Assembly: GCA_017560085.1 (NCBI GenBank)
Contig: JAFYPA010000052.1
Location: 65,928-129,927 of the forward strand
Origin: Clostridia bacterium
GTDB lineage: Bacteria > Bacillota > Clostridia > Oscillospirales > CAG-382
Reading direction: 5' to 3'
DNA length: 64,000 bases
Position numbers and translations under genes: made by a program. The notes under the pieces were generated by a model. It did not search any database. It was not told the origin of the DNA and saw only the letters and a list, made by a program, of their open reading frames with translations. Shown here one piece after another: positions 1 through 50,541 of this stretch. Every line of letters begins with the position of its first letter. Position 1 is the first letter of the stretch.

Positions 1-2137
1 GCTCAAAGCATATTGACGGCATTCCCGTGCCGATAACCACAACGCCCGAAAGCTTATCTCCCACAAGGTCAATGCCCTCCGAGAAAAGACCTCCGCAGAC
101 CGCGAAGCCAACCAGGGTTTCCTCACCGTGCTTTTCGAAGGCTTCAAGGAATTCCGCTCTTTTTTCCTCGTCCATATTGCTCATTTGTGTCACAGTTCTG
201 ATTTCGGGATGGGCATCGGCAAAAACCTCAAGAACGCTTGTGAGGTATTTGAAGGACGGGAAGAAAACAAGGTAATTACCCGTTTTGCATTTTATTGCGG
301 AGTAGATTGTTTCGCAGACTCTTTCGTAGCTTCCCTCTCTGTCCTTAAGTCTTGTGGAAAGAGTGGTATACACCGCAACCAGCTGATTTTCGGGCTTGAA
401 GGGTGACGGAAGCCTTATGTATTTATCGGTATCCGCATTCATACAGAGAAGCTCTGTATAATAATCAAAGGGTGAAAAGGTTGCGGAGAAGTACACGGTG
501 CTCCTTATACTGTCGCATATTGCACGAAGAATAGGAGCGGGATTTGTGCAGGTATAATAAAGCACGGTTTCCTTGCCGTCCGTTTCGGCATACACACGGA
601 AGCATGACGGATGCGTGGTTGCGAGCTGTGTTATCTGAAGCATAAAGTTGCAGTCAAAGAAGGTTTCGAGAGTTTTTTCCTTCTCCTTTGCGTAGCCGTC
701 CTCTCCGAGAAAGCCCTTGTAATTGTCGCAGAGCTTTTCAAGGGCGTTTTCAAATTCAAGCCCCGCACTTATGCCTAAAATTCTTCTTTCCTCCTCGGCA
801 TCGAACATACTCTTACCGAGCTTTTTAAGGACATTCGCAAGAGAGGAAAAGCTTCGTCTTACCTTTTTGGGTGCTTCCTTGAGCTCCTTGTGTGCCTTTG
901 TAAGGGATGCTCTCGAAAGAATTGCTGTGTACATATCCCTTGCTCTGTCGGGAAGGTTATGTGCCTCGTCAACAAGTGCGATGTAGTCTCCGCCGACGGA
1001 GAAGTATCGCTGAAGATACGCCTGCGGGTCATAGAGGTGGTTATAGTCACCGACCACGCAGTCGCAGAAGTAGCTTGTATCAAGGGCGAGCTCGTGGGGG
1101 CATACGCAATGCTTTTCGGCGTATTCCGCTATTTTTTCGGGAGTAATAACGAATTCGTTGTTTATGATATCCCACAGAGCGTCGTTCATTCTGTCAAAGC
1201 AGGAGGCGGAATATTTGCAAAGGGACGGCATACAGTTGCCCTCGGAAAGACAGCTTTTGGTCTTGGCAGTGAGGACAAGGAGCCTTGTATAAAGTCCGCT
1301 CTCACGCATTTTTTCAACTGTTTCCGCCGCGACGGTTCTTTGCACGGCTTTGGCGGTGAGGTAGAAAATCTTCTCTCCCATATCCTCACCGAGCGCCTTA
1401 TATGCGGGGAACAACGATGATACTGTCTTGCCCGTTCCCGTGGGAGCCTGAGCGAAAAGTGCCGAGCTGTCACGAACGGAGCGGTACACCGCACCGCAGA
1501 GCTCTCTCTGTCCCTTGCGGTAGCTTCCGAAGGGGAATTTCAGATTGGCGATGGATTCGTTTCTCTTTTTTCTGTGCTCATAAATGAAGGTTATCCACGG
1601 AAGAAGCTCATCGCACATTTCGTTGAACCTTTCCGTAGCAAAGGAAAAATCAATTCTTTTTTCAAGTATATTGGTTTCCTCGCTGTCGCAGTTGTGGTAA
1701 ATGAGCCGAATAACCGCACTACGCTTCCCCGACAGCTTCATATACATATAGGCATAGCAATAAAGCTGAAGATCATAAACGGGTATACTTCCGAAGTCAA
1801 GCGAGGACACCTTTTTAGAGGTGGTTTTAATCTCATCGATAACCACATTCTCACCCGGCACGCCCTCGGAAATACCGTCAGCTATACCCACAAGGTTCAG
1901 AACAAAGGGCGAATCCCCCATTCTTTCCTCAATACAAAGCCGATATTCCGGATTGTAAAGCTTCAACAGCGTACTTTGCGCCTTCTGAAACTCCCGATGG
2001 AATTTCACGCCCTTCTTCATCTTTTCCACAGGCACAGACGCCACCCCAACATAAGCATCCCCGCTCCTGCGAAGAAACTCACATATTTCACGGACAGATG
2101 TATTAACATATCCGTCGTCGCGGATGTCAAAAAGCAT
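1..2137 (-). CDS. XPD/DinG-family Fe-S DNA helicase with N-terminal PD-(D/E)xK (Cas4/AddB-like) nuclease domain; C-terminus lies beyond the window edge
   Basis: Absent from the ORF track because it has no in-window stop. My translation of the minus strand from ATG 2137 (SD AAAGGTGGTG upstream) stays open to base 1 and begins MLFDIRDDGYVNTSVREICEF. Nuclease-like motifs VIDEIKTT and QLYCYAYMY are present. Walker A is AQAPTGTGKT. There is a Cys cluster CLSEGNCMPSLCKYSASC plus CVCPHE, and a DEAH box LVDEAHNL. Confidence 0.75.
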   Translation of the reverse strand, partial: MLFDIRDDGYVNTSVREICEFLRRSGDAYVGVASVPVEKMKKGVKFHREFQKAQSTLLKLYNPEYRLCIEERMGDSPFVLNLVGIADGISEGVPGENVVIDEIKTTSKKVSSLDFGSIPVYDLQLYCYAYMYMKLSGKRSAVIRLIYHNCDSEETNILEKRIDFSFATERFNEMCDELLPWITFIYEHRKKRNESIANLKFPFGSYRKGQRELCGAVYRSVRDSSALFAQAPTGTGKTVSSLFPAYKALGEDMGEKIFYLTAKAVQRTVAAETVEKMRESGLYTRLLVLTAKTKSCLSEGNCMPSLCKYSASCFDRMNDALWDIINNEFVITPEKIAEYAEKHCVCPHELALDTSYFCDCVVGDYNHLYDPQAYLQRYFSVGGDYIALVDEAHNLPDRARDMYTAILSRASLTKAHKELKEAPKKVRRSFSSLANVLKKLGKSMFDAEEERRILGISAGLEFENALEKLCDNYKGFLGEDGYAKEKEKTLETFFDCNFMLQITQLATTHPSCFRVYAETDGKETVLYYTCTNPAPILRAICDSIRSTVYFSATFSPFDYYTELLCMNADTDKYIRLPSPFKPENQLVAVYTTLSTRLKDREGSYERVCETIYSAIKCKTGNYLVFFPSFKYLTSVLEVFADAHPEIRTVTQMSNMDEEKRAEFLEAFEKHGEETLVGFAVCGGLFSEGIDLVGDKLSGVVVIGTGMPSICFE

Positions 2138-2624
2138 AAAACACCACCTTTCTTTTTTACGGGAGGCCTCCGGCGGCTCGCTTTTGGGAAAAGCGAGACC
2201 AAAACTTTAAATGTTATGCAGGGCTCGCTTTCCGCTCCCCCTGCATGGGTTTTGTTTTTTTGTTGCCAACTTTAACCTGTTGCATTCCGTTCTGCCTAGG
2301 TTAAAGGGCAACCGAATACCGAACAAGCGAACTTTAACAACCCACGGTCGGCTTGTAGATGTGTTTTAATTTATATCTCATTTTCGTTTTCCCCGCCTGC
2401 GACGATGCCGTGGGTTGGCATCGTTGCACGGAATACACTTGCCTTTTATCATAGCAGAACGGTAAGCAACTCGATACCCACAGCAACTCCTAACTCTAAC
2501 CCCGGCGCAAGGAGAGAAAGACCTCCAAGACCGCTTGCGGTCTTCGCGGTCTTGACGAGTGAAGCCAATATATTCAAGTTCTTGCGGAGCTTCTTTCAAG
2601 AAGCGACTCGCCGAAGGCCTCTCG
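2138..2624 (-). other. 487-nt non-coding, hairpin-dense spacer (candidate structured leader or ncRNA) between two helicase genes
   Basis: No credible ORF; the two track ORFs here are Arg/Pro-rich junk. At least six stem-loops are readable: 2177-2197, 2216-2246, 2262-2312, 2403-2423, 2527-2544 and 2589-2604. There is no hairpin plus U-run on the minus (gene) strand. Confidence 0.35.
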
Positions 2625-4775
2625 TTAAAGAAGCTCAATCAGCTCCGAAACCTTTTTGGCGTTCATGCGGTCACCGGCGTAGGCTTTTTGGAGGAGGGGC
2701 TTTGGGACGAGGTAGTCGTATTTTTCGGTGAAGCAGCCCTCGGAGTCGTCGATGAGGGAGATGTTTTTGGATTCGTCGACGTAGCGGGCGGCACGCATAA
2801 GGGTCAGGAATTCGTCAATGTCTTTGTCCTCGAGATGGAGAGAGAGAACGTAGGGGTTTTCTATTACTGTCCTTGAGGTTACTATACCGCCTGTGGTCTT
2901 GCGGATGAAACGGCAGAGAGTGTTCATCGCACTGCTTCCGAACCAGGGGAGAATTATATATAAATCGTCGTCGAGCTTGTGCATCGGATAGTCGAGAAGA
3001 CCGTTGTCCTTGGCGAGCTTTCTTGCACTTGTCAGAACTCTTGCGGCATTTTTGCCGAGATAGGGGTAAATTTCGTCCTCGGAGAGAATCTTTTTGACAT
3101 ATTCGGCTATCTTGTCGTCTATGCCCGTCAGACTTCCGCGCCAGAAGGAGGAAAGCTTGCCCTTGGCGGCTCTTGCGTAGATTATTCTCTGCTCGCTGTC
3201 AAGCCGCTCGCATATCCATACCCTGCCCGCAAGACTGAACTTTCCGCCGGGACTTACCGCCTCGGGGATTTCACCTATCTCCTTGCCGTCCTCGTCTCTT
3301 ACCGTGTAGTTTACCTCTTCCTTGAATACAGCGTAGAACTTGAAGGAGTTTATCATCTTCTCCGCTCCGAGACCGAGAATTACCTTGCCGTCATCACATC
3401 TGTCTATGTTTCCTTTGGCGTACAGATGCGAAAGCAGAAGCTTGTAGTCCTCGCTTGAAATTCCCGAAAAGGGCGCAAGAGTGAGCACCGTTCTTGCAAG
3501 CTCGGGAAGTGAAAGTCCCTCTATACTCGATGCAAGCACGGATAAGGTCTGATGGGCAAGAAGACTGTATGGGTACTTCTTCTCCTTCGCAGACTCAACA
3601 AAGCGCTCACGTCTGTAAAGCTCAACTATCGCTATTCCCTGCAAAAGCTCGAAGGGTAGAATGTCGTATCTGTCGGCGTTGTCCTTTTCGCTCTCGTATG
3701 TGAAAACGGAAAGCATCTCGGGTGTGTTGCCTCGTCGTCCCGAGCGTCCGAGCCTCTGAAGAAAGCTTGATACCGTGTTGGGCGTGCCGAGACTGACCAC
3801 TCTTTCAAGTCTGCCGATGTCTATACCCAATTCAAGGGTGGATGTAGCACATACTACCGTGTGCCTTGACGGACTCTTGAGTGCCTTTTCAGCATCGTGT
3901 CGGAGAGATGCGGATATATTTCCGTGGTGAATGAAAATGTCGCCGTTGTCGTGCCTTTTGGCGGATATGTCACGCAGAGAGGCGGTGATTTTTTCCGTTT
4001 CCTCACGGCTGTTGGAAAACACAAGGGAGTTCTTCTTTTTTACGGCATCGTATATGAATTCGTCCCTTGCGTGTATGTCCTCAAAGTATTCGTACAGAAG
4101 CGAAACATCAAGCTTTTCACCGCCGAAGCTCGGGCAGACCGTGCTTCTGTCGTTGCACTTGGACAGCATTCTGCAGGCACTTTCCGTGCTTCCCACCGTT
4201 GCGGAAAGACCCACAAGGCGAGGATTCACCTCTGCGATTTTCATTATTCTGGATATCTGACAGAGCACCTGTCCGCCTCTGTCCGTGCCAAGAAGGGCGT
4301 GAAGCTCGTCTATTACTACGAACTTCAGATTCCTGAATATATTTCTTATCTTCGTGCCGTGGCAGATAAGCAGGCTCTCAAGGGATTCGGGGGTTATCTG
4401 AAGTATTCCCGAGGGGGACTCGGTGAACTCCTCCTTGTTCCTTGAGGATACGTCACCGTGACGGTGATATACGCTTATGCCCGCGGACTTGCAAAGATAG
4501 GTTATACGCTCGAACTGGTCGTTTATAAGAGCCTTGAGCGGAGCTATATAAAGAACACTTACTCCGTCCTTCGGCATTTTTTCTATTTGCGTAAGTATGG
4601 GAAAGAACGCCGCTTCCGTTTTTCCCGAGCTTGTGCCGCAGGATAAAAGCAGATTGTCCTTTGTGTCAAGTATTACGCCTATCGCCTCATTCTGTACGGG
4701 GCGAAGTCCCTGCCAGCCGTTTCGGAATACATATTCCTTTATAAACGGGGCAAGCCTTGTTGAATTATCCTGCAT
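2625..4775 (-). CDS. Lhr-like DExH-box superfamily-2 helicase (helicase component of a Shango-type TerB/ATPase/helicase module)
   Basis: Start moved to ATG 4775 (MQDNSTRL, SD GAAAGGA 5 nt upstream); the 10 extra codons of the track ORF read into the heptamer array. SF2 motifs: I GTSSGKTEAAF, II VIDELHAL, III LSATVG, VI LQRLGRSGRRG. There is a long C-terminal extension after the two RecA-like domains. Confidence 0.8.
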   Translation of the reverse strand: MQDNSTRLAPFIKEYVFRNGWQGLRPVQNEAIGVILDTKDNLLLSCGTSSGKTEAAFFPILTQIEKMPKDGVSVLYIAPLKALINDQFERITYLCKSAGISVYHRHGDVSSRNKEEFTESPSGILQITPESLESLLICHGTKIRNIFRNLKFVVIDELHALLGTDRGGQVLCQISRIMKIAEVNPRLVGLSATVGSTESACRMLSKCNDRSTVCPSFGGEKLDVSLLYEYFEDIHARDEFIYDAVKKKNSLVFSNSREETEKITASLRDISAKRHDNGDIFIHHGNISASLRHDAEKALKSPSRHTVVCATSTLELGIDIGRLERVVSLGTPNTVSSFLQRLGRSGRRGNTPEMLSVFTYESEKDNADRYDILPFELLQGIAIVELYRRERFVESAKEKKYPYSLLAHQTLSVLASSIEGLSLPELARTVLTLAPFSGISSEDYKLLLSHLYAKGNIDRCDDGKVILGLGAEKMINSFKFYAVFKEEVNYTVRDEDGKEIGEIPEAVSPGGKFSLAGRVWICERLDSEQRIIYARAAKGKLSSFWRGSLTGIDDKIAEYVKKILSEDEIYPYLGKNAARVLTSARKLAKDNGLLDYPMHKLDDDLYIILPWFGSSAMNTLCRFIRKTTGGIVTSRTVIENPYVLSLHLEDKDIDEFLTLMRAARYVDESKNISLIDDSEGCFTEKYDYLVPKPLLQKAYAGDRMNAKKVSELIELL

Positions 4776-4790
4776 GGTTGTCCTTTCAGA

Positions 4791-4822
4791 AAATGCAAAA
4801 TGCAAGGTGCAAAATGCAAAAT
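4791..4822 (-). repeat. Tandem heptamer array, 4.5 copies (mRNA strand UUUUGCA UUUUGCA CCUUGCA UUUUGCA UUUU)
   Basis: The plus strand reads AAATGCA AAATGCA AGGTGCA AAATGCA AAAT. It fills the spacer between the TAA of the ATPase gene (4822-4824) and the SD of the helicase gene. Confidence 0.9.
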
Positions 4823-6162
4823 TAGAGCTCGAATTTTGAGAATGCGGAGTCGAATTCGTCTGCGGTGTCCTCCGATTCGCTTGTTGCCTTTTCCGCCTCT
4901 GCCTTTATGAGGGTTTCAAAGGATGCGTCGGGATTCTGCATAAGAATGTTGAGCACGGAAAGGAAGTCTCTTATTACCTCTCTGGGTGTAAGAAGGCTGT
5001 CCGAGCCCATTCTTTCGCTGTAGATTTTGAGGAAGCGGAGCTTTTCCTCGTCGGTGGTTCTGATGTCGCACTTGTAGTAGAGGTTGTGCACCGTTTCAAG
5101 CTTTCCCACGAGGGCAAAAAGCTCGTCGCCCGTGAGCCTTGAAAGTCTTATTACGGGAGTGATGAAGTTCTTGAGGCTTTCGTTTTCCGATATTCCGAAG
5201 CGCGAGTCGGAAAGTCTTGAGCGGAGTGCCTCGTAGCTGTAGAGGCCTCTGTTTTTGTCCTCAAGGAATTCGGGTGTGCCGCCGAAGTATATGCCGAGTC
5301 CCTCTGCCTTGCCCTGCATTGTGTCGTTGAACATGGAAAGTATCTTTTCGTAGTTGTTCTCACGGGAGACACGGTTGGGGATTTTGTAGAGGTTTACGCA
5401 TTCGTCAAGGTATACTATAAGTCCCTTGTAGCCAAGCTTTCGTACAAACAGAGCCATAAGCTTTATATAGTCGTACCAGTTTTCGTCGTTGATTACCGAG
5501 GCAACACCGAGCTCTGTTCTTGCCTCAAGCTTTGTGGAGTATTCGCCGCGGAGCCACTTGAGAGATGCACCGAGAAGTGCCTCGTCTCCCGTGGAATAGC
5601 CCTCGTAATAGCTCCAGATGACCTTTGCAAAGTCAAAGCCGTTTACAAGGCACTCAAGCTCGGAGCAGACCTTGAATATTTCCGCTCTTACGAATTTTGT
5701 AAACTCCTCCGAGTCGGGCTCGATTCCTTCGGAAACCGCATTTGTTCCGACGCCTCCGAGCCATCTTGCGAGAATCCCCGCAAGAGCACCGCCGTCGGGC
5801 GAGGACTTGCAGGCGAGATTCTTTATAAGCTCACGGTAGGTTGCAAGACCCTGATTTCTTGTACCCGCAAGTCTTCTCTCGGGAGAAAGGTCCGCACTTG
5901 CCGTGACAAAGCCCTCGGAGAGTGCGTGGTTTTCTATAAGGCGAAGAAGAAAGCTTTTACCGCTTCCGTATCTGCCCACGATGAATTTCACCGCACACAT
6001 TCCGTCCGCTATGTCCTCAAGGTCACGGAGAAGTGCCGAAAGCTCGTCGTTTCTTCCTATTGCGATATATTCAAGTCCGCTTCTCGGAACTACGCCCGCA
6101 CCTATAGAATTGAGAAGTATACCGAGTACACGTCTTGAAATTTTTACATTGTTGTCTGTCAT
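4822..6162 (-). CDS. DUF2791 / BrxC-BrxD-type P-loop ATPase (ATPase component of the Shango-type module)
   Basis: Start moved to ATG 6162 (SD GGAGGTG 8 nt upstream), 2 nt after the TGA of the upstream gene. N-terminal GAGVVPRSGLEYIAIGRNDEL, Walker A GRYGSGKS and Walker B LIVYLDEC match my memory of this family. Confidence 0.75.
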   Translation of the reverse strand: MTDNNVKISRRVLGILLNSIGAGVVPRSGLEYIAIGRNDELSALLRDLEDIADGMCAVKFIVGRYGSGKSFLLRLIENHALSEGFVTASADLSPERRLAGTRNQGLATYRELIKNLACKSSPDGGALAGILARWLGGVGTNAVSEGIEPDSEEFTKFVRAEIFKVCSELECLVNGFDFAKVIWSYYEGYSTGDEALLGASLKWLRGEYSTKLEARTELGVASVINDENWYDYIKLMALFVRKLGYKGLIVYLDECVNLYKIPNRVSRENNYEKILSMFNDTMQGKAEGLGIYFGGTPEFLEDKNRGLYSYEALRSRLSDSRFGISENESLKNFITPVIRLSRLTGDELFALVGKLETVHNLYYKCDIRTTDEEKLRFLKIYSERMGSDSLLTPREVIRDFLSVLNILMQNPDASFETLIKAEAEKATSESEDTADEFDSAFSKFEL

Positions 6163-6164
6163 AT

Positions 6165-7562
6165 TCAAAGCACCTCCGTGTCGTAAAGCTCACTAAATAT
6201 TTCTTTAAGCTCGTCGCTGTAATCTTCCAAAAAAACAAAATCCTCTATTATGATATCGCCGTATGTGTCCGACGATTTTTCGTTTATTGCATCAATATAT
6301 CCTTGCGCCATACCGCCACGCTTTTTCGAGAAGGCGTTTACGTCAAGACCCTTCGACATAGCACAAAGGAATTGCTTTTCTGCTTCGGTAAGGCTTGCAA
6401 AGAAGTCCTGCCAGTCCTCGGGGATATCGGTGTTTACGGTTGTTTGTCCGTTATCCGTCGGAGCATCGAGCGGTGTTTCCGCTTCTACCGCTTCCTCGGT
6501 GCCACCGTAGACGGATTCCACACTGAAGCTTATATCGTTTCCGCCGTAATCCGCACCTAAAAGCTCTGCGATTTTCCAGGATTCCGCCTCAAGTCTTTTT
6601 GCCTTGGCGAAGTCTATATCAAGGCTTATCGGCTCGAAGCTTGCCTTTTCCGCCTCCGCCTTTTCACGGCGAAGCTGCTCCTTCTTGGGCGAGGGCTTTC
6701 GTCCAACCTTTGCGGGCATCGGCAGAAAATCGGGTATGGCATCTCTTATCGCATCGGAGCAGACTCTTCTGTACTCGGAGGACAGAGTAAAGCCGACGAT
6801 TTTGGATTTTGCGCCAAGTCCCAGTCTTACAAGGTTGTCGGTATGCTTCAGCACCGCGGTTATGAAGGTGCGAAGCTCTGTATTGTCGGAATAGGGCAGA
6901 TATGTCACGGTGATTTTTGCGGGGCATCCGCTTGTACAAGGGAGTCCCATAAACGCCGTTCGTTCGGTTGTCACGGGCTCGGGAAGGAAGAAGCCTCTTC
7001 CCCGCTCCCCGAGTGCCGCGGACAGTGCCTTCGGGATTACTGCGAGCACCGCCCTTCGGTAAAGCTCTTGGTTCTTTTCGAAGCAGGGTGATTTTCGGAT
7101 ATCGTACTCGGAAAGATACTGCAGTGCATTTTCGAGAGTGCTCTCAAGCTCCGAGGCATCCCTTTTGAAAAATACGTTTACAAGCTCTCCGACCGCAAAA
7201 TCCGAAACGAGGAACGCCTCCCCCGCACCGATTTGCGAAAGCTCGGATATTTTTCCGACATTGCCCGTCACAAGGCAAAGGTCGCATATCCATTCGCCGA
7301 GAAGTATGGCGAGAATCCGACTGTTTTTTCTGCAAAGCGTGTAAAGCTCCGAAAGCTCACGGAATGCGCAGTCGAATTCCGTCCCGCCCTTTATTGCGGA
7401 TTCTGTAATTTCTGCGATGCGGTACACCAAAGGCACGGAGAATGCTTCGAGCTCGGACGCATCCCGCTCGTCTGTACCCTTACGGAAAGCACTATAGCCG
7501 TGCTTTGACGGTGTTATGTAAACATCCGTGACTGTTCCGTTTGCCCTGTTCTTTTCGTCCAT
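6165..7562 (-). CDS. TerB-N/TerB-C-like protein (first gene of the Shango-type module)
   Basis: 465-aa ORF with SD AAGGGGGAG. It has a Lys/Glu-rich linker. The acidic C-terminal segment GYIDAINEKSSDTYGDIIIEDFVFLEDY resembles the TerB-C motif (INE..D..GD.L.E). Assignment rests on that motif plus the conserved gene neighbourhood. Confidence 0.55.
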   Translation of the reverse strand: MDEKNRANGTVTDVYITPSKHGYSAFRKGTDERDASELEAFSVPLVYRIAEITESAIKGGTEFDCAFRELSELYTLCRKNSRILAILLGEWICDLCLVTGNVGKISELSQIGAGEAFLVSDFAVGELVNVFFKRDASELESTLENALQYLSEYDIRKSPCFEKNQELYRRAVLAVIPKALSAALGERGRGFFLPEPVTTERTAFMGLPCTSGCPAKITVTYLPYSDNTELRTFITAVLKHTDNLVRLGLGAKSKIVGFTLSSEYRRVCSDAIRDAIPDFLPMPAKVGRKPSPKKEQLRREKAEAEKASFEPISLDIDFAKAKRLEAESWKIAELLGADYGGNDISFSVESVYGGTEEAVEAETPLDAPTDNGQTTVNTDIPEDWQDFFASLTEAEKQFLCAMSKGLDVNAFSKKRGGMAQGYIDAINEKSSDTYGDIIIEDFVFLEDYSDELKEIFSELYDTEVL

Positions 7563-7598
7563 AATGCTCCCCCTTTTTTATTATTTCGGTAATATATA

Positions 7599-7627
7599 AT
7601 TTTACTCCGTTTTTTTCTTTTCGTCAA
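7599..7627 (-). promoter_or_regulatory. Sigma-A-type promoter for the TerB/ATPase/helicase operon
   Basis: The minus strand reads TTGACG (7627-7622), 17 nt, TAAAAT (7604-7599), about 35 nt upstream of ATG 7562. Confidence 0.5.
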
Positions 7628-7688
7628 GGGATTTTACACGGAAAGCTCAAATATTAAATATAAAGTAACAATTTCAGCGGTAAACGGC

Positions 7689-7719
7689 AAAAAAACGGTG
7701 CACCCGTAAGGTACACCGT
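7689..7719 (-). terminator. Intrinsic terminator of the ABC exporter operon (readable in both directions)
   Basis: 10-bp stem ACGGTGCACC/GGTACACCGT with a 5-nt loop, flanked by an A-run (7689-7695) and a T-run (7722-7727). It starts 10 nt after the TGA at 7729-7731. Confidence 0.7.
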
Positions 7720-14953: not shown

Positions 14954-16648
14954 TTATTTTTTCTTGTTTATTGACATAACCTTAAAGTAGTCGCCCTTTA
15001 CATTTCTTATTGCAGATTCCTTGAGGTATCTTGCACCAAAGCCAAGGGTTGTTGCGATGGTGGATGCAATCTGATTTTCCTTTGAGGGAACGAAGTCTGC
15101 CGTTTCGCCTCTGTATACTCTGTAGTAGCAGTGGAGCTTGTCGTTTACGGCATTCCATGTGAGCATATTCTTGTTCTTGTCGAATTTTACGTTTGTTGCG
15201 TATACATCGGGTCTGTCGATGTAGTCGGTTGTGAATACTGTTACGGATTCGGGGAGAAGCGTATATGTGAGGTTAAGCTCATCGTCAAGAGAGATTCTTG
15301 CGCTTTCGTCCTGAAGGTCACCGAACTCGTTCATGGGGACATTGTGGGAATCGTATTCGTACACCTTGAAGGGCTGAAGGTCCTCTGCGTGCTTTATTGC
15401 AAGGTTGAGCCTGAGCTCCTTCTTTTCCTTGGCACGGTTAACTATTGTTATGGAAACATTACCGTCCTTATGGAGAAGAGCCGCACTACGGAGCATATAA
15501 TCACCGCAGTCCACGTCAAGCACCTTGGAGTTACGCTTCATATACTTTGTGACGATACCGAGGCACCAGTACATTTCACGCACGGAATAATCTCCGTCGT
15601 CCTCCCACTTCATAAGACCGCACTTGTTGTACTTTGTGTCCTGTGTCTGGGAGATGTATCTTTCCGCCTTGCCCCATTCCTTTGCGTACTCGTCGTTTTC
15701 GGCGTAGTGGCAGACATAGGGGTCGGGATAGTCGGAGTATGTCCAGTATACGAGGTTGAGAACGCCCGCATTGATTGCGGCAAGAGCGCCCTCGGTATAG
15801 GCAAGAGCGGCATATGCGCCCTCTCCGTTGTAGTTGTAGTTTGTTACGTCCTTGATGACACCGGGAAGGAAGCAATAGGAGGATTCCTTGATGTCATTCT
15901 TACCCTCTCCGCTCTTGAAGCCGAATTCACCTATGATAAGACGCTTGCCTGCCGCACCATTACAGCGGATACATTTCATAACACAGTCAAGGCAATGCTT
16001 TCTGAACCAGTCGTAAAATTCAAGGCTGTAAATATCGTGGCTTGAAACATAATGATGTGTGCAGAAGTCCTCGGTTATGGATGACATTTCGTTTATGGCA
16101 TAATCAATGGTAGTCCAGGGAGGCGTGCAGGATTCATCCGTGGACAGAAGTCCCACATAAAGCTCTCTGTTCTGGAATGCACGGTAGAGATGTGTGTGGT
16201 AGGTCTTGAAAAGATCCATATTCTTTTTGAGAACACCGTGATTTGCACAGGAAAGCTCGTTTGAGAAGCAATAGTATCTTATCTGCTTTACATTTCTTTC
16301 GTTTATGAGGTAGTCAAGCTTTTCCGCAACCTTCTGTGCGTATTCCCATCTTTCCTCGTCGCAAAAGTGCTGTTTACCCATTGCGGAAGCGAGATAAATG
16401 GGAGTGTCGGTAACCTTCTGCATTCTTTCGTAGTAGTCAGCAAAGGTATCCATACTGTCCTTTGACCAGTCGGAGAAGCCTCCGAAGGTACGCATAAATG
16501 CGGGAGAAATTTCGTGGTAGCACTTTGCGAGCTTCTGGTCGAAGTGCTCCTTTTCGGTGAGTCTGTAGAAGTGCCATTCGCTGTTGTGGAAGCCGAGTCC
16601 GCCAAAGAGGCTGGGGAACTGCGGGCGGGTTATTTTCATATTGGGCAT
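14954..16648 (-). CDS. Clan GH-A-like (beta/alpha)8 glycoside hydrolase with C-terminal Fn3-like domain, paralog 1 (cytoplasmic)
   Basis: Start moved to ATG 16648 (MPNMKITRPQF, SD AAAGGAG), matching the paralog N-terminus MSTNMKITRPDF. YYCFSNE (Asn-Glu acid/base) and IIGEFG (nucleophile Glu) are spaced as in clan GH-A enzymes. There is no signal peptide. Confidence 0.5.
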   Translation of the reverse strand: MPNMKITRPQFPSLFGGLGFHNSEWHFYRLTEKEHFDQKLAKCYHEISPAFMRTFGGFSDWSKDSMDTFADYYERMQKVTDTPIYLASAMGKQHFCDEERWEYAQKVAEKLDYLINERNVKQIRYYCFSNELSCANHGVLKKNMDLFKTYHTHLYRAFQNRELYVGLLSTDESCTPPWTTIDYAINEMSSITEDFCTHHYVSSHDIYSLEFYDWFRKHCLDCVMKCIRCNGAAGKRLIIGEFGFKSGEGKNDIKESSYCFLPGVIKDVTNYNYNGEGAYAALAYTEGALAAINAGVLNLVYWTYSDYPDPYVCHYAENDEYAKEWGKAERYISQTQDTKYNKCGLMKWEDDGDYSVREMYWCLGIVTKYMKRNSKVLDVDCGDYMLRSAALLHKDGNVSITIVNRAKEKKELRLNLAIKHAEDLQPFKVYEYDSHNVPMNEFGDLQDESARISLDDELNLTYTLLPESVTVFTTDYIDRPDVYATNVKFDKNKNMLTWNAVNDKLHCYYRVYRGETADFVPSKENQIASTIATTLGFGARYLKESAIRNVKGDYFKVMSINKKK

Positions 16649-16689
16649 GGGAGGGTCTCCTTTGGTTTGATGTTTTGGGGAAGTGGGAT

Positions 16690-16724
16690 TCATAATGCAT
16701 AATGCATAATGCATAATGCATAAT
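16690..16724 (-). repeat. Tandem heptamer array, 5 copies (mRNA strand AUUAUGC x4 + AUUAUGA)
   Basis: The plus strand reads TCATAAT GCATAAT GCATAAT GCATAAT GCATAAT, 42 nt upstream of ATG 16648. Confidence 0.9.
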
Positions 16725-16732
16725 CGAGGTTG

Positions 16733-16763
16733 ATTGCAAAGAATTCTGCGAATTCTTTGCAAT
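16733..16763. repeat. Perfect 14-bp inverted repeat with 3-nt spacer (operator or RNA hairpin)
   Basis: ATTGCAAAGAATTC tgc GAATTCTTTGCAAT lies between the two GH-A-like paralogs. No U-run follows it on the mRNA strand. Confidence 0.85.
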
Positions 16764-16789: not shown

Positions 16790-18460
16790 TTAGCGTTTTT
16801 GGTTGACGGAGAGTACCTTGTAGTAGTTGCCTTTTACGGTTTTGATGGCTGAGGCTTCGAGGTATCTTGCGTCGAGGTCGAGGGTTTCGGCGACGGTGGA
16901 GGCTATCTGGTTTTCTTTTGAGGGGATGAAGTCCTCGGTTTCGCCTCGGTATACTCGGTAGTAGCAATGGAGCGGGTCGTCGATTTTGTCCCAGCTTACT
17001 ATGTTACCCTCTTGCTTTACGTTTTCGGCGTAGATGTCCTCTCTGTCTATGTAGTCTGTTGTGAGTACCGTGAAGGAATCGGGAAGGAGCTTATAGGTGA
17101 ATTTTCCTCCGTTGTGGCATACTGTTTCGGAATAGTCCTGAAGGTCGCCGAATTCGTTCATCGGGACGTTGTGGCTGTCGTAGATGTATGCCCGAAGGTC
17201 GGGCATATTTTTGATTCCGAAGATGTCAAGGTCTATGTCTATTTCCGATTCGGTATGGTTTCTGTTGACAATGCAGATGCTTACCGTGCCGTCACGGTTT
17301 AAAAGGGCGCAGGTGTGGATGTTTCTGTCGGCACATTCAACGCTTAATACCTTTGCGTTTCTTCGGCAGAATCTTGAGATGAGTCCCGAGGAATAATAGC
17401 ATTCACGCACGGAATAGTCTCCGTTGTCCTCCCACTTCATAAGACCCCATTTGTTGTATTTTACGTCCTGGGTATGGGAGATGAATCGCTCGCATTCGCC
17501 CCATTCCTTTGCGAATTTATCCTTGTCGGAATGGTAGTGGCAGACATATGGGTCGGGATAGTCGGTAAATGTCCAGATGACTATGGCAAATACGCCCGCG
17601 TTTATGGATGCGAGAATGATATCCGCAAGAATGAGTGCACCGAGTGCTCCCTCTCCGTTGTAATACCAGCCGTTTACGTCTCTTATAACGCCGTTCAAAA
17701 ACCAGCCGTATTCCTTGCAGTCTACGCTGACACCGACCTCGCCGAGGATGAAGCGCTTGCCGTCACACTGACAGCTCTTTATTACTCTGTCCTCGCATTT
17801 TTCCTTGAACCAGTAGTAAAGATCGGGGTCTGTCATTCTTTCGTAAGAGCCAGAAAGATAGTGATGACCGCACATTTCCTCCGTGATTCGCTTCATATGC
17901 TTTGCGGCGTAGTCCATTGTGTCCCAGGCTTCGACAGGACCTGCATCCGTTGCGAGAAGTCCTATATTGAGGTCATACTTCTGAAATGCCTGAAACAGAA
18001 GCTCGTGGTATTTTTGGAAAAGAGGCAAATCCTCAAGGAGTCCGCCCCAGTCGTTCATTGACATTTCGTTGGAGTAGCAATAATAGCGAAGCTGCTTTAC
18101 TCCTCTTTCGTTCTTGAGGTAGTTAAGACGGGATGCGACATTTTCCGCATACTCCTTTCTTTCCTCGTCATTGAAGTGGAGCTGTCCCTTCGCGGCGGCA
18201 AAGTATATGGGAGTGTCCGTCACCTTCTGCATTCTTTCGTAGTAGTCGGCGAAGGTGTCCATGCTTTCCTTTGTCCAGTTGGGATAGCCCGCAAAGCAAC
18301 GGGAAAAGCCCGGGGAAAGCTCACGGTAGCATTTGCAGATTTTCTGGTCGAAATGCTCCTTTTCTATAAGTCTGTAAAAAAGAGCCTCGTTATTGTGAAA
18401 GCCGAAGCCCCCGAAGAAGGTCGGGAAATCGGGGCGGGTGATTTTCATATTTGTTGACAT
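16790..18460 (-). CDS. Clan GH-A-like glycoside hydrolase with C-terminal Fn3-like domain, paralog 2 (cytoplasmic)
   Basis: 556 aa, roughly 55-65% identical by eye to 14954-16648. Motifs YYCYSNE and ILGEVG are present. There is no signal peptide. Confidence 0.5.
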   Translation of the reverse strand: MSTNMKITRPDFPTFFGGFGFHNNEALFYRLIEKEHFDQKICKCYRELSPGFSRCFAGYPNWTKESMDTFADYYERMQKVTDTPIYFAAAKGQLHFNDEERKEYAENVASRLNYLKNERGVKQLRYYCYSNEMSMNDWGGLLEDLPLFQKYHELLFQAFQKYDLNIGLLATDAGPVEAWDTMDYAAKHMKRITEEMCGHHYLSGSYERMTDPDLYYWFKEKCEDRVIKSCQCDGKRFILGEVGVSVDCKEYGWFLNGVIRDVNGWYYNGEGALGALILADIILASINAGVFAIVIWTFTDYPDPYVCHYHSDKDKFAKEWGECERFISHTQDVKYNKWGLMKWEDNGDYSVRECYYSSGLISRFCRRNAKVLSVECADRNIHTCALLNRDGTVSICIVNRNHTESEIDIDLDIFGIKNMPDLRAYIYDSHNVPMNEFGDLQDYSETVCHNGGKFTYKLLPDSFTVLTTDYIDREDIYAENVKQEGNIVSWDKIDDPLHCYYRVYRGETEDFIPSKENQIASTVAETLDLDARYLEASAIKTVKGNYYKVLSVNQKR

Positions 18461-29358: not shown

Positions 29359-32300
29359 TTACTTAAGGTTGCTGCCACTTACAGTACCGAAGTTTGCCTT
29401 AACGATACCGAGGTCGGTTACGTTAACTGCGCCGTCTTCGTTGATGTCAACTGTGCTCTTGTACTCATCTGTAGCTGCGGAGTCGAATGCTCTTACAACT
29501 CTGATGAAGTCGGAGAGATCAACTGTGCCGTCACCGCAGATTGCAGTGGTGGATTCCTTGATGTCACCGCCGAGTACTGTAATCTCAACAACGTTGCCTG
29601 CCGCAGATACGGTAACCTCTTCAAGTGCTGTGACGTAACCGTTCTTAGCAACCTTGATCACGATTGTATCGCCAACCTTTGCATCCTTGAATACATATTC
29701 AAGAGTTGCTTCTGTGTTGCCTATATCATCAATTACTACAGGTTCATCAAGGTCCTTCCAAATGTAACCGATGTTGGAAACTGTTTCGCCATCCTTGTCA
29801 TCGAAGGTTACGATAACCTTAACGTCAGCAGTTGTGATTTCAAGCTCTGTATCTGCATGTGTTGTGTAAGCTGTTGCAACTCTTGTTACTTCGAGACCGT
29901 CTACATAGAGAGCCACGAGGTAGTTGCCTTCTGCGTCAACATACTTTTCAGCATCTTCAACGTCTGCGATATCGAGAAGCTCGAATGCAGGAGTGCCTGC
30001 TGCTTCGTAAGCTGCTCTCTGGTCTTCTGTCATCTTAGCAGCGATTGTTGCGATAACAACCTCTTCTGTTGCATCGATGTAGCCGTCTGCATCATTTGCG
30101 GAGCCGTCCCATACGAATGCTACGCCGTCTTCGCTCATAGCAAGCTCAATGCCGAGGTAGTTTGCAATACCTTCTGCAAGAACAAGTGCGTTGGAAGCAT
30201 CAGGATCGAATGTCATGTAGTCGCTGTTGAATGCGATACCGAATGCACCTGCGTTAACCTTACCGCCCTTGTAAGCAACCTTGATTGTGTAGTCGCCTGT
30301 TACGGGGTTGTAGTTACCGTATGTCTTGTATTCGTAGTCAGCTTCAACAACTGCTTCGATGATGTCATCCTTGTGAGCTGTGTATACAACTGCAATCTTA
30401 TCTGTGTCGAGGCCATTTGTGTAAGGAGCTACGAGGTAGTTTGTACCGTTGAAGTACTTAGGATCTGCGTCTGCCGAAACAACATATTCAAGGAACTTGT
30501 CCGGGAAGGAAGCTGTTGCATTGAGTACGAATGTTGCAATGAGAACCTCTTCGTTTGTTGCATCAATGTATCCGGGAGCTTCTTCGATTGCCCATGTGTT
30601 TGCGTAGTAGTCATCGCCCTTTGCAAAGATGGGAGATACTGCTGTACCTATTTCGGAGAAGAGTGTTACGCCTTCTGCAGGAATTACTTCAACAAGTCCG
30701 GGAAGAACGAAGCCGAAGGAGCCCATGTGAGCCTTAACGTTTGTAATCTTGAGCTCAACTGTGTATGTGCCTGCTGCTTCATCGTATACACCGTATGTCT
30801 TGTATTCTGCGGGCTCAACGATTGTGCTCTTGAATACGGGAACGAGTGTTGTGTCTTCTGCGAATGTGAATTCATCAACAACGTCTGTTGTTCCTTCAAC
30901 AGCCCAGCCGAGGAATTCGTGGTCAGCCTTTTCGGGGGCTGTACCGTTGAATCTTACTGCTTCGCTGTTGAGTGCGTCGATTGCGTAGAGAACAGCGCCG
31001 TCTTCGCCCTTGAATGTTACTGTTGCAACTGTGGGTTCGGACTTGAAGAGGTACATGGAGTCAATGTATACATATTCTCCGTTAGCGGCAAGTGCGCTTG
31101 CCTTAACCTCGTTCATAGGTCTTATGTGGAACTGGATGGAGAGGTCGGGAGTCTTGCCGTCTGCTCTGTCCATCTTGTCTACTACATATGTCCACTTGCC
31201 TGCTTCCATATCAACGCTGAGCATATCAGCCGCTACAAGAGTTGTATTCTCCCAAGGATGCTTCTGATACCAAACGTTGAACTTTCTTGTTTCTGTGTTC
31301 ACGCCGGGAACATAGTAGTATCTGTATACTGCGTATTCGTAAATTGCGGGGTTAAGAACTGTGCTGTTAGCACCTGTTGAGTAGTTGAGAGGATATCTGC
31401 CGGAGCCTTCGATATTGATAGAGGTTGTTGTTGCGTTACCTTCGCTACCGGGGATAATCTTAACTGCTTCAACGCCATCAATTGTTGCGTTTTCTCTTGT
31501 AAATACGCCTGCTACATTGTTAACTACACCGAGGTCTGCTGCAACATAGTTCTTGTATGCCGATTCGGGCATTGCGATTTCGTTGAATGTTGCTGTAAGT
31601 GTTGCGCCACCTGCGGGAGCTGTGTATGTAGCATCAACGTCAGCTGTGCCGTCGTTCCAAGCCTTGAATGTGTAGTAAGCATCCTTTGTGGGAGCGGGAA
31701 CTGTTGTTACTGCGGGGAATGTTACTGCCGCGCCTACCTGGTATTCTGCTTCTGTTTCTGTGCCGTTTACAACGAACTTAACAATTGCATACTCAACCTC
31801 TTCTTCAACAGTTACGAATTCAACTGTATGTTCGCCTGCTGTTGTGATGCCTGTGATGATGTCGTTTGTATAGTTTTCAAGGAGGATTGCTTCGCCACCG
31901 TCAATCTTAACAGCGTTTGCTGTGGAATCTGCGGGAAGCTCGTATGTGAAGCCCTTGAGAACTATTGCCTTACCCCAGTTGGAGTCAATATTTGTACGAT
32001 CTGCGGGATATGTTTCCTGTGCGTTTGTAGCAGCGTGGAGCTTACCGCCGATTGCCTTAACTACGATTGCGCCTGTATCTGTTACATTTGCAGTCATATT
32101 GTTGTTAAGGATTACTACTCTTGTAGCATCGTCGGGATCAGCCGCACCTGTCTGCTTGTTTGTACCAACCTGGATTTTGCCGATTGTACCGCCGTTATAT
32201 TCAACTACGGTTACACCTGCACGAACAGAAGCTGTCTGAGACTTATCTGTGTCGTAAACCTTGGATACGGAGGAGCCTGTGATTGTGATATCACCTACTG

Positions 32301-40299: not shown

Positions 40300-40360
40300 A
40301 AGCAATTCTCCTTTGAAAAAATAAAAATTTTCTGGTGGGGATAACAACCCCATTGTTAGA

Positions 40361-40389
40361 AGTATAATACATTTTTGATTGTTTGTCAA
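40361..40389 (-). promoter_or_regulatory. Sigma-A-type promoter of the giant gene
   Basis: The minus strand reads TTGACA (40389-40384), 17 nt, TATACT (40366-40361), about 60 nt upstream of ATG 40299. Confidence 0.6.
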
Positions 40390-50382: not shown

Positions 50383-50541
50383 TTCTGTATTGCTTCCTTT
50401 CACTATTGAGTTTAGAGAATTATACCACGGAAGCGAGCCGTAAATCAATAGATTTGAGTTTTTTTAGTTAAAATGCATATTTATTTGTAAAATATGTCAA
50501 TTTCCCGCAGAAGTGCAAAAAAGTTATTTTATGTCATACTG

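What the first reader, a model, noticed from the sequence alone, without database searches (positions are those of the whole stretch)
2625..7627. TerB-like / DUF2791 P-loop ATPase / Lhr-like DExH helicase operon: a Shango-type anti-phage module
Seen in sequence:
- Three minus-strand genes are packed almost without spacers. The TGA of gene 1 lies 2 nt before the ATG of gene 2, and there is a 46-nt spacer before gene 3.
- They sit behind one TTGACG-N17-TAAAAT promoter.
- Gene 2 carries the N-terminal GVVPRSGLE..GR..EL block plus Walker A/B typical of the DUF2791 (BrxC/BrxD-type) ATPase.
- Gene 3 has all SF2 DExH motifs with a long Lhr-like C-terminus.
- Gene 1 ends in an acidic INE..D..GD motif like TerB-C.

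Established knowledge: exactly this triad (TerB-N/TerB-C protein + DUF2791 ATPase + SF2 helicase) was flagged by comparative genomics as a mobile conflict system. It was later shown experimentally to be the Shango defence system (SngA/B/C).

Inference: this is a Clostridial Shango homolog. Its mechanism is still unknown, so a divergent Firmicutes copy with extra neighbours is worth attention.
Basis: partly seen in the sequence, partly recalled or inferred. Interest (0 to 1): 0.8.

Follow-up and report, generated by a model that had tools for sequence, protein, structure and literature searches.

The report
Shango defence operon, lineage-fixed variant
The three genes are a real Shango-type (SngA/B/C) anti-phage operon, but an unusual version: its first protein lacks the usual TerB-N domain, and throughout one gut Clostridia lineage it sits as a fixed chromosomal block in front of a nuclease-helicase gene (EndoDinG).

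Summary
Three co-oriented minus-strand genes (6165-7562, 4822-6162, 2625-4775) have the stated junctions and promoter.

Profile searches identify them as Shango:
- SngB: E 1.9e-168, full length.
- SngC: E 7.9e-203, full length.
- SngA: E 1.3e-23, but only the C-terminal 57% of the model. It has Pfam TerB_C and no TerB_N.

1. Gene 1 belongs to a small clade (about 27 clusters at 50% identity). This clade has replaced the first ~175 residues of canonical SngA, including the TerB_N core.
2. In all 9 clade loci with enough sequence, a fourth gene follows SngC on the same strand. It encodes a PD-(D/E)XK + XPD/DinG "EndoDinG" helicase, with a terminator after it. None of 80 outgroup Shango loci has it.
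3. The block is not in a defence island. SngB and SngC diverge at the same rate as the flanking housekeeping genes, so the block looks vertically inherited. No relative was found in IMG/VR.
4. SngA evolves much faster: 37-47% identity against 79-89% for SngB, and dN/dS 0.34 against 0.04.
5. A ~90-nt promoter block is conserved in 11 of 11 loci.

Verdict: a known system in a new variant. The mechanism is still inferred.

The parts
7590..7673 (-). Conserved promoter block of the operon: upstream element GTTAC (7669-7665), -35 CTTGAC(G) (7628-7622), -10 GTAAAAT (7605-7599), and conserved TATATATTAC just downstream.
   Evidence: Consensus scan. An alignment of 11 clade loci has 40 invariant columns although the upstream genes differ (ABC2, TrkH, AraC, MarR, AraA-like).
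7695..7719 (-). Intrinsic terminator of the upstream ABC exporter gene. It marks the 5' boundary of the module.
   Evidence: 11-pair stem followed by a T run; sequence.
6165..7562 (-). sngA-like gene, 465 aa. Layout: fast-evolving helical N-domain (residues 1-~195), conserved central SngA region (~196-335, including the PAKVGRKP and LEAESWK motifs), acidic disordered linker (338-377), and TerB_C (379-465). No TerB_N.
4822..6162 (-). sngB gene, 446 aa. DUF2791/BrxC_BrxD P-loop ATPase with Walker A GRYGSGKS at residue 63 and Walker B IVYLDE at residue 249. Its start lies 2 nt after the sngA stop (spacing compatible with translational coupling).
4794..4820 (-). Four tandem TTTTGCA-type heptamers in the sngB-sngC spacer. 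The same repeat lies in the sngC-EndoDinG spacer of L004, L005 and L007. Its function is unknown.
2625..4775 (-). sngC gene, 716 aa. Lhr/BrxHI-like DExH SF2 helicase with motifs GTSSGKT, DELH, SAT and QRLGRSGR, plus an Lhr-like region beyond the motor.
2138..2624 (-). 487-nt spacer found only in this genome, bracketed by 36-nt imperfect inverted repeats (2155-2190 and 2594-2629). It is strongly structured. Probably a MITE-like insertion that separates sngC from the EndoDinG gene.
1..2137 (-). First 712 codons of an 807-aa EndoDinG gene (PD-(D/E)XK nuclease + FeS XPD/DinG 5'-3' helicase); the rest lies beyond the window. It is the conserved fourth gene of the block in this lineage.
   Evidence: Linkage.

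Best explanation
This is a Shango-family (SngA-SngB-SngC) defence operon of an uncultured Oscillospiraceae/Ruminococcus-like bacterium, in a lineage-specific variant form.

Shown:
- One conserved sigma-70-type promoter (7627-7599) lies upstream of sngA, sngB and sngC, and no terminator-like site was found within the operon. sngB starts 2 nt after the sngA stop.
- SngB is an intact BrxD-type P-loop ATPase, and SngC is an intact Lhr/BrxHI-type DExH helicase.
- SngA keeps the central SngA region and TerB_C. Its TerB_N part has been replaced by a short, fast-evolving N-terminus.
- The block is fixed in the lineage and was ancestrally a four-gene unit. It ends with an EndoDinG nuclease-helicase gene followed by a terminator.

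Inferred mechanism:
- SngA is the variable sensor or adaptor. It is the only fast-evolving component, and its gene abuts that of the ATPase.
- On sensing a phage cue, SngA licenses the SngB ATPase to load or activate the SngC 3'-5' translocase on phage DNA or replication intermediates. This would parallel the homologous BrxD/BrxHI pair of BREX.
- Shango itself has no nuclease. In this lineage the co-transcribed EndoDinG may perform the DNA cutting, but that step is the least certain.
For: - Identity of the parts: PADLOC SngA, SngB and SngC are the best hits, and the Pfam domains agree. All catalytic motifs are invariant across 8 orthologous loci.
- Operon structure: junctions of 2 and 46 nt. 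A-B gaps of -8 to +2 nt in all loci. Promoter block conserved in 11 of 11 loci.
- Variant SngA: no TerB_N in 20 of 20 members. hhalign aligns clade positions 56-479 to canonical positions 175-580. A score gap of 326 to 192 bits separates the clade from the other 2171 relatives.
- SngA as the fast-evolving part: 37-47% identity against 79-89% for SngB and 70-83% for SngC. N-terminal residues 1-195 average 16-29% pairwise identity. dN/dS is 0.34 against 0.04 and 0.05. The same trend holds across 89 loci.
- Linkage to EndoDinG: 9 of 9 clade loci against 0 of 80 outgroup loci. Both flanks have been rearranged repeatedly, but the C-D junction never. Spacers are 21-53 nt in 5 loci, with hairpin-plus-T-run terminator-like sequences after D in most loci, read by eye.
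- EndoDinG identity: PDB 9KQH at E 6e-132.
- Shango is experimentally anti-phage in E. coli and P. aeruginosa.
Against: - No experiment exists for this variant, and the mechanism of Shango is unknown in the literature searched.
- The locus is not in a defence island. No other defence gene or integrase lies within ~15 kb.
- It is inherited vertically at housekeeping rates, and no relative was found in IMG/VR. A housekeeping role is therefore not excluded.
- dN/dS of SngA is raised but below 1, so positive selection is not shown.
- EndoDinG homologues at 41-48% identity stand alone in 3 of 3 other lineages examined. The linkage may simply reflect where the triad was inserted.
- In the window itself a 487-nt insertion separates sngC from the EndoDinG gene.
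- All comparison loci are metagenome or MAG contigs.
Confidence: 0.8

Rival explanations
1. The block is a domesticated genome-maintenance module, not immunity. In this lineage the SngABC-like proteins would work with EndoDinG in DNA repair, or in resolving replication or transcription conflicts on the host chromosome.
For: - It is present in every sampled relative, among housekeeping genes, with SngB and SngC under strong purifying selection (omega 0.04-0.05) and diverging like the flanking genes.
- It is co-oriented with a DinG-family repair-type helicase and shares a terminator with it.
- Many outgroup SngA-SngB pairs also sit next to rny-ymdB, alaS or lacZ without an adjacent SngC.
- No copies were found in viral contigs.
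Against: - The closest characterised relatives are experimentally anti-phage.
- SngA diverges far faster than any housekeeping neighbour, as expected for a component in conflict with parasites.
- The triad is absent next to EndoDinG in the more distant relatives examined, so it is an acquisition rather than ancestral core machinery.
Confidence: 0.15
2. It is an ordinary three-gene Shango. The EndoDinG gene is an unrelated housekeeping neighbour that marks the ancestral insertion site, and read-through transcription has no functional meaning.
For: - The EndoDinG family is widespread in Firmicutes (5687 hits at E < 1e-10).
- It stands alone in 3 of 3 other lineages examined.
- No canonical Shango locus carries it (0 of 80).
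- The window tolerates a 487-nt insertion between sngC and the EndoDinG gene.
Against: - Both outer borders of the A-B-C-D block were broken by rearrangements several times, while the C-D junction was kept in 9 of 9 loci.
- Spacers of 21-53 nt in five loci carry an RBS and no terminator.
- An 8.8-kb recombination tract carries B, C and D together.
Confidence: 0.45
3. It is a fragment of a BREX (type 2-like) system, with genes 2 and 3 being BrxD and BrxHI.
For: There are significant BrxD (2.9e-47) and BrxHI (1.2e-123) hits, and the Pfam family is named BrxC_BrxD.
Against: - The SngB and SngC models score far higher (559 against 160 bits; 674 against 412 bits).
- NCBIfam BREX_BrxD scores 159 bits against a cut-off of 350.
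- No PglZ, PglX or BrxC-type genes occur among the neighbours scanned or in the 9 related loci.
Confidence: 0.02

Closest known systems
Shango (SngA/SngB/SngC) of E. coli and P. aeruginosa PA14 (Millman et al. 2022, bioRxiv 10.1101/2022.05.11.491447; Johnson et al., bioRxiv 10.1101/2022.11.11.516204)
   Same: - Same three protein families in the same order and orientation.
- SngB and SngC match the models end to end.
- SngA shares the central region and TerB_C.
- As in the sampled family as a whole, SngA is the fastest-evolving component.
   Different: - SngA lacks the first ~175 canonical residues, including the TerB_N core.
- The block is fixed and vertically inherited among housekeeping genes, not sitting in a defence hotspot or island.
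- A fourth co-oriented gene (EndoDinG) is linked in 9 of 9 clade loci and in 0 of 80 other Shango loci.
BrxD + BrxHI accessory pair of BREX
   Same: The two-gene ATPase + DExH helicase module is homologous. SngC groups with BrxHI, DruE and DpdJ in a defence-specific SF2 clade (PMC12278908).
   Different: The scores are much lower than for SngB and SngC. No PglX, PglZ or BrxC partners are present, and a TerB_C protein precedes the pair.
EndoDinG, Finegoldia magna FmaDinG (PDB 9KQH; PMC13650095)
   Same: - The fourth gene matches 9KQH over its full length (E 6.3e-132).
- The D / ExK / QxxxY nuclease motifs, FeS cysteines, DEAH box and motif VI are all intact.
- The family is described as a Mn2+-preferring endonuclease coupled to a 5'-3' helicase.
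   Different: FmaDinG has no known in vivo role or partner. Here the gene is the last gene of a Shango operon across a whole lineage. More distant homologues stand alone.
Lhr-core helicase (Mycobacterium smegmatis, PDB 5V9X)
   Same: It is the best solved-structure match of SngC (1.3e-33). TIGR04121, an Lhr-like family, covers residues 12-574.
   Different: Only the motor region aligns by sequence. The Pfam WH_Lhr hit is below its threshold (19.4 against 27 bits). The C-terminal ~140 residues are specific to SngC.
TerB-N/TerB-C + DUF2791 ATPase + SF2 helicase conflict system predicted by Anantharaman, Iyer and Aravind 2012 (listed in the reference list of the paper read; its content is from my own knowledge)
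   Same: Same ATPase and helicase families, plus TerB_C.
   Different: The TerB-N half of the defining protein is absent here.

Membership tests
Shango (SngABC) | SngB: DUF2791 / BrxC_BrxD P-loop ATPase with intact Walker A and B | tested here: met
   PADLOC SngB 1.9e-168, covering profile positions 4-438 of 439. Pfam BrxC_BrxD 6.1e-151. Motifs are invariant.
Shango (SngABC) | SngC: SF2 DExH helicase of the SngC/BrxHI type | tested here: met
   PADLOC SngC 7.9e-203, covering profile positions 7-717 of 720. Pfam DEAD and Helicase_C. Motifs I, II (DELH), III and VI are present.
Shango (SngABC) | SngA: TerB_C domain and the central SngA region | tested here: met
   TerB_C 3.1e-10, above the Pfam cut-off. 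PADLOC SngA 1.3e-23. hhalign against canonical SngA gives probability 100 and E 4.5e-54.
Shango (SngABC) | SngA: TerB_N domain | tested here: not met
   - There is no TerB_N hit at E <= 0.1 for gene 1, or at E <= 1 for any of 20 clade members.
- 9 of 10 canonical relatives scanned carry TerB_N.
- The clade profile starts aligning at canonical position 175, so only the tail of TerB_N is retained.
Shango (SngABC) | Three adjacent co-oriented genes in the order A-B-C | tested here: met
   The order is conserved in 9 related loci.
Shango (SngABC) | Confers resistance to phage | not testable with these tools
   This is known only for the E. coli and P. aeruginosa systems.
Shango (SngABC) | Accessory or mobile distribution (defence island or hotspot). 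This is typical of the family but not strictly defining. | tested here: not met
   - The neighbours are housekeeping genes, with no other PADLOC system within ~15 kb.
- The block is present in all sampled relatives and diverges at housekeeping rates.
- There were no hits in IMG/VR.
BREX | PglZ, PglX methyltransferase and BrxC in the same cluster | tested here: not met
   None is found among the window neighbours or among the genes called in 9 related loci. BREX_BrxD scores 159 bits against a cut-off of 350.
EndoDinG (fourth gene) | N-terminal PD-(D/E)XK nuclease fused to an FeS-containing XPD/DinG helicase core | tested here: met
   - 9KQH matches at 6.3e-132 over residues 11-779.
- Pfam gives Helicase_C_2, DEAD_2 and HBB.
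- The motifs GIADG, DEIK, QLYCY, a Cys cluster, DEAH and QAAGRVIR are conserved.
- PDDEXK_1 (PF12705) is recorded for orthologues.

The most novel reading that the evidence does not exclude
The four-gene block is one functional machine: a Shango variant in which the TerB_N-less SngA senses infection and the SngB/SngC motor hands phage DNA to the co-transcribed EndoDinG nuclease-helicase as the effector. If so, Shango would gain its first identified nuclease effector, and EndoDinG, a structurally solved enzyme with no known biology, its first in vivo role.
Probability: 0.25. Interest if true: 0.65.

Novelty: new variant of a known kind. Interest (0 to 1): 0.45.

Why it matters
Shango is experimentally validated, but nothing is known about how it senses phage or what it does to them, and it has no obvious effector. 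This lineage offers three natural handles on those questions.
1. An SngA that works without the TerB_N core would show that TerB_N is dispensable or replaceable.
2. SngA, especially its N-terminal half, diverges several-fold faster than SngB and SngC, both in this clade and across 89 sampled loci. That points to SngA as the specificity or sensor subunit.
3. The strict operon linkage to EndoDinG, a nuclease-helicase solved in 2026 with no known cellular role, gives a testable candidate partner.

The locus also cautions that DefenseFinder or PADLOC 'Shango' calls can be fixed, core-like chromosomal genes rather than mobile islands.

Tried and rejected
- **TerB_N in gene 1.** Pfam was run at permissive thresholds on 20 members, and a profile-profile alignment was made. 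Nothing aligns N-terminal of the TerB_N tail.
- **Fold of SngA.** The AF2 model (pLDDT 76.8, about 90 for residues 40-285) gave no significant Foldseek match in the PDB or in BFVD. Sequence profiles of SngA and SngB against the PDB also gave nothing.
- **'Empty site' argument.** L013 has an EndoDinG gene without the triad. Its AraC neighbours are not orthologous to those of the clade, and only WbsX (57%) is shared. I therefore claim only that EndoDinG occurs alone elsewhere.
- **A simple inversion to explain L004 versus L007.** The gene order does not fit. The data instead show an 8.8-kb tract at 99.2% identity with sharp ends.
- **Structured RNA in the 487-nt spacer.** There is no Rfam family (only SNORD126 at E 0.36, which is noise) and no plasmid match. 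It looks like a MITE-like insert.
- **BREX and defence-island readings.** Both were rejected.
- **Phage-borne copies.** None were found in IMG/VR with the SngB motifs.
- **Positive selection on SngA.** Only one close pair was available, and omega is 0.34, not above 1.


Full report
**1. The observation**

The window carries three co-oriented minus-strand ORFs:
- Gene 1, 6165-7562: 465 aa.
- Gene 2, 4822-6162: 446 aa from the ATG.
- Gene 3, 2625-4775: 716 aa from the ATG.

The junction between genes 1 and 2 reads TGA-AT-ATG. The spacer between genes 2 and 3 is 46 nt.

TTGACG-N17-TAAAAT lies at 7627-7599, 36 nt upstream of the ATG and its AAGGGGGAG ribosome-binding site. It sits just after the terminator of the upstream ABC exporter gene at 7719-7695. 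As a bare consensus match this is weak, because 19 promoter-like sites were found against 11.3 +/- 3.4 in shuffles. Comparative data make it solid (section 5).

**2. What the proteins are**

Gene 2:
- Pfam BrxC_BrxD (DUF2791), 6.1e-151.
- PADLOC SngB, 1.9e-168 end to end, against 2.9e-47 for BrxD.
- NCBIfam BREX_BrxD scores 159 bits against a cut-off of 350.

Gene 3:
- Pfam DEAD and Helicase_C.
- PADLOC SngC, 7.9e-203 end to end, against 1.2e-123 for BrxHI.
- The nearest solved structure is Lhr-core 5V9X. An Lhr-like TIGR04121 match covers residues 12-574.
- Pfam WH_Lhr is below its threshold.

Gene 1:
- Pfam TerB_C only (3.1e-10).
- PADLOC SngA at 1.3e-23, but residues 132-455 match only profile positions 226-526 of 528.

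The triad is therefore Shango by composition and order, and not BREX. No Pgl or Brx core genes occur nearby or in related loci.

**3. SngA is a truncated or replaced variant**

- A word-indexed search found only 19 relatives of 463-524 aa. All have TerB_C and none has TerB_N.
- None of the 20 clade sequences hits TerB_N, even at E <= 1.
- An exhaustive profile search of 1.84 billion representatives gave about 27 full-length clade members (E < 1e-90). After a drop from 326 to 192 and then 148 bits came 2171 broader relatives. In these the match starts at clade-profile position ~55-90, which corresponds to protein position ~150-250.
- Nine of ten of these broader relatives that were scanned carry TerB_N plus TerB_C.
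- hhalign of the clade profile against 30 canonical proteins gives probability 100 and E 4.5e-54. Clade positions 56-479 align to canonical positions 175-580. The canonical N-terminus, including the conserved VPFFSYxPQYxQM...YLYWR core, has no counterpart.
- The AF2 model (pLDDT 76.8, about 90 for residues 40-285) shows a helical domain with a small sheet, a disordered acidic linker at 338-377, and a helical TerB_C.
- No significant fold match was found in the PDB or BFVD.

**4. A conserved fourth gene**

The apparently empty region 1-2137 is the start of an ORF that runs off the window. The full gene (L001:14026-16449, 807 aa) encodes an XPD/Rad3/DinG helicase with an N-terminal PD-(D/E)XK domain.

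It matches PDB 9KQH, Finegoldia magna 'EndoDinG', at 6.3e-132 over its full length. That enzyme is a Mn2+-preferring endonuclease coupled to a 5'-3' helicase. Its in vivo role is unknown (PMC13650095).

Evidence for linkage to the triad:
- In all 9 clade loci long enough to judge (window/L001, L003, L004, L006, L007, L008, L010, L011, L012), the gene follows sngC on the same strand.
- The spacers are 21-53 nt in five loci, 158 and 229 nt in two (L003 was not measured), and 487 nt in the window.
- Read by eye, hairpin-plus-T-run terminator-like sequences follow the fourth gene in most loci. None is apparent between C and D where the spacer is short.
- Meanwhile both outer flanks have been rearranged. 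Upstream lie MarR-ABC-ABC in either orientation, TrkAH, AraC, or an AraA-like gene. Downstream lie a 351-aa gene or GalK.
- Among 80 outgroup Shango loci from metagenomes (SngB 53-60% identical), none has an EndoDinG-like gene. All 53 complete SngA genes there are of the canonical type.

Evidence against a dedicated partnership:
- The EndoDinG family is large in Firmicutes (5687 hits at E < 1e-10).
- Homologues at 48, 44 and 41% identity stand alone among housekeeping genes.

The linkage is therefore clade-specific. It reflects either a four-gene operon under selection or the ancestral insertion site of the triad.

**5. Promoter footprint**

An alignment of the region upstream of sngA from 11 clade loci shows about 90 nt with 40 invariant columns. 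In window coordinates these include:
- GTTAC at 7669-7665.
- CTTGAC at 7628-7623.
- GTAAAAT at 7605-7599.
- The following TATATATTAC.

The genes further upstream differ between loci, and the adjacent SngA N-terminal coding sequence is hypervariable. The promoter therefore belongs to the module. Conservation within the spacer and of the upstream element suggests that a regulator binds there.

**6. Evolutionary behaviour**

Identities to the window proteins:

| Protein | Identity |
|---|---|
| SngA | 37-47% |
| SngB | 80-89% |
| SngC | 70-83% |
| EndoDinG | 65-83% |

- The flanking genes are comparable to SngB and SngC: ABC1 84-89%, ABC2 81-88%, AraA-like 83-91%. SngB, SngC and EndoDinG therefore look vertically inherited with the chromosome.
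- No integrase or second defence system lies within ~15 kb.
- No relative was found in IMG/VR.
- Within SngA, residues 1-195 average 16-29% pairwise identity. The central and TerB_C parts average about 50%.
- For the one close pair, window against L019, dN/dS is 0.34 for sngA, 0.04 for sngB, 0.05 for sngC and 0.02 for ABC2. dS changes along the locus (0.09, 0.29, 0.62), which indicates recombination.
- L004 and L007 share an 8.8-kb tract (sngB, sngC, EndoDinG and two further genes) at 99.2% nucleotide identity. The tract begins about 50 nt before the sngA stop codon. Their sngA alleles are 46% identical in protein and their flanks differ. An independent assembly (L005) reproduces the L004 arrangement.
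- Across all 89 sampled loci, SngA is the fastest-diverging component. Its median identity is 27-32% where SngB is 50-70%, and 53% where SngB is 80-90%.

**7. How it most likely works**

Shown:
- Intact enzymes.
- An operon with sngA and sngB only 2 nt apart.
- A conserved promoter.
- Fast-evolving SngA beside strongly constrained SngB and SngC.
- Linkage to EndoDinG.

Inferred:
- SngA is the sensor or adaptor.
- SngB and SngC form an ATP-driven DNA-acting motor, like the homologous BrxD/BrxHI pair.
- EndoDinG may supply the nuclease that canonical Shango lacks.

No paper found in the library describes a mechanism for Shango.

**8. Rivals**

- Ordinary three-gene Shango with EndoDinG as a bystander: 0.45 for that sub-question.
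- A domesticated genome-maintenance module: 0.15.
- A BREX fragment: 0.02.

**9. Novelty and score**

The system family is known, and PADLOC-type tools would call it Shango. New here:
- The TerB_N-less SngA clade.
- The lineage-fixed, core-like status of the block.
- The operon linkage to EndoDinG.
- The family-wide rate asymmetry that points to SngA as the variable subunit.

I rate it a new variant of a known kind, with interest 0.45.

**Caveats**

All comparison loci are metagenome or MAG contigs. No phenotype is available. The taxonomy rests on MAG labels (Oscillospiraceae and Eubacteriales) and on a dockerin-bearing giant surface protein in the window.

Noticed in passing
window 2138-2624 (inverted repeats 2155-2190 / 2594-2629): A 487-nt spacer between sngC and the EndoDinG gene is present only in this genome; other clade loci have 21-229 nt. 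It is bracketed by 36-nt imperfect inverted repeats and folds far better than shuffles (z = -6.07). It has no Rfam or plasmid match. It looks like a MITE-like insertion or an unknown structured RNA.
   Followed up: partly
window 4794-4820; L004 14979-15005; L007 14946-14972; L019 3434-3460: Four tandem TTTTGCA heptamers occur only in spacers of this module: between sngB and sngC in the window and L019, and between sngC and EndoDinG in L004, L005 and L007. L006, L008, L010 and L011 carry other short AT-rich tandem repeats (6-8 nt units) in the same spacers. They could be a protein- or RNA-binding site.
   Followed up: partly
L020, L036, L048, L053 (rny-ymdB checked by Pfam in L020 and L053); L088 (alaS); L098 (lacZ); 24 loci in all: Many canonical SngA-SngB pairs in gut and termite metagenomes have no SngC-type helicase within up to 10 kb. 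Housekeeping genes follow them directly. Two-gene SngAB units without an adjacent helicase seem common.
   Followed up: partly
L004 11400-20190 vs L007: An 8.8-kb tract (sngB, sngC, EndoDinG, a 352-aa gene and MurJ) is 99.2% identical between two genomes. Their ABC2 genes are about 85% identical and their sngA alleles 46% identical in protein. This indicates recent recombinational exchange, with a breakpoint about 50 nt before the sngA stop codon.
   Followed up: yes
window 29359-40389 (-): A giant 3676-aa ORF carries a Listeria-Bacteroides repeat (Flg_new), a C-terminal type I dockerin, and internal ~200-nt repeats at 33026-36189. It is a cellulosome-type surface protein and suggests a Ruminococcus-like host.
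   Followed up: partly
window 14954-16762 / 16790-18460 and 46251-47771 / 48853-50448: There are two pairs of tandem paralogous genes (72-82% nucleotide identity over repeat blocks). The first pair has no Pfam domain.
   Followed up: no
window 7640-7673 and the same block in 10 related loci (alignment A4): An invariant GTTAC followed by an AT-rich near-palindrome lies about 37 nt upstream of the -35 hexamer. The -35/-10 spacer (GAAAAGAAA) is also conserved. Together these suggest a dedicated regulator of the operon that is not encoded next to it.
   Followed up: partly
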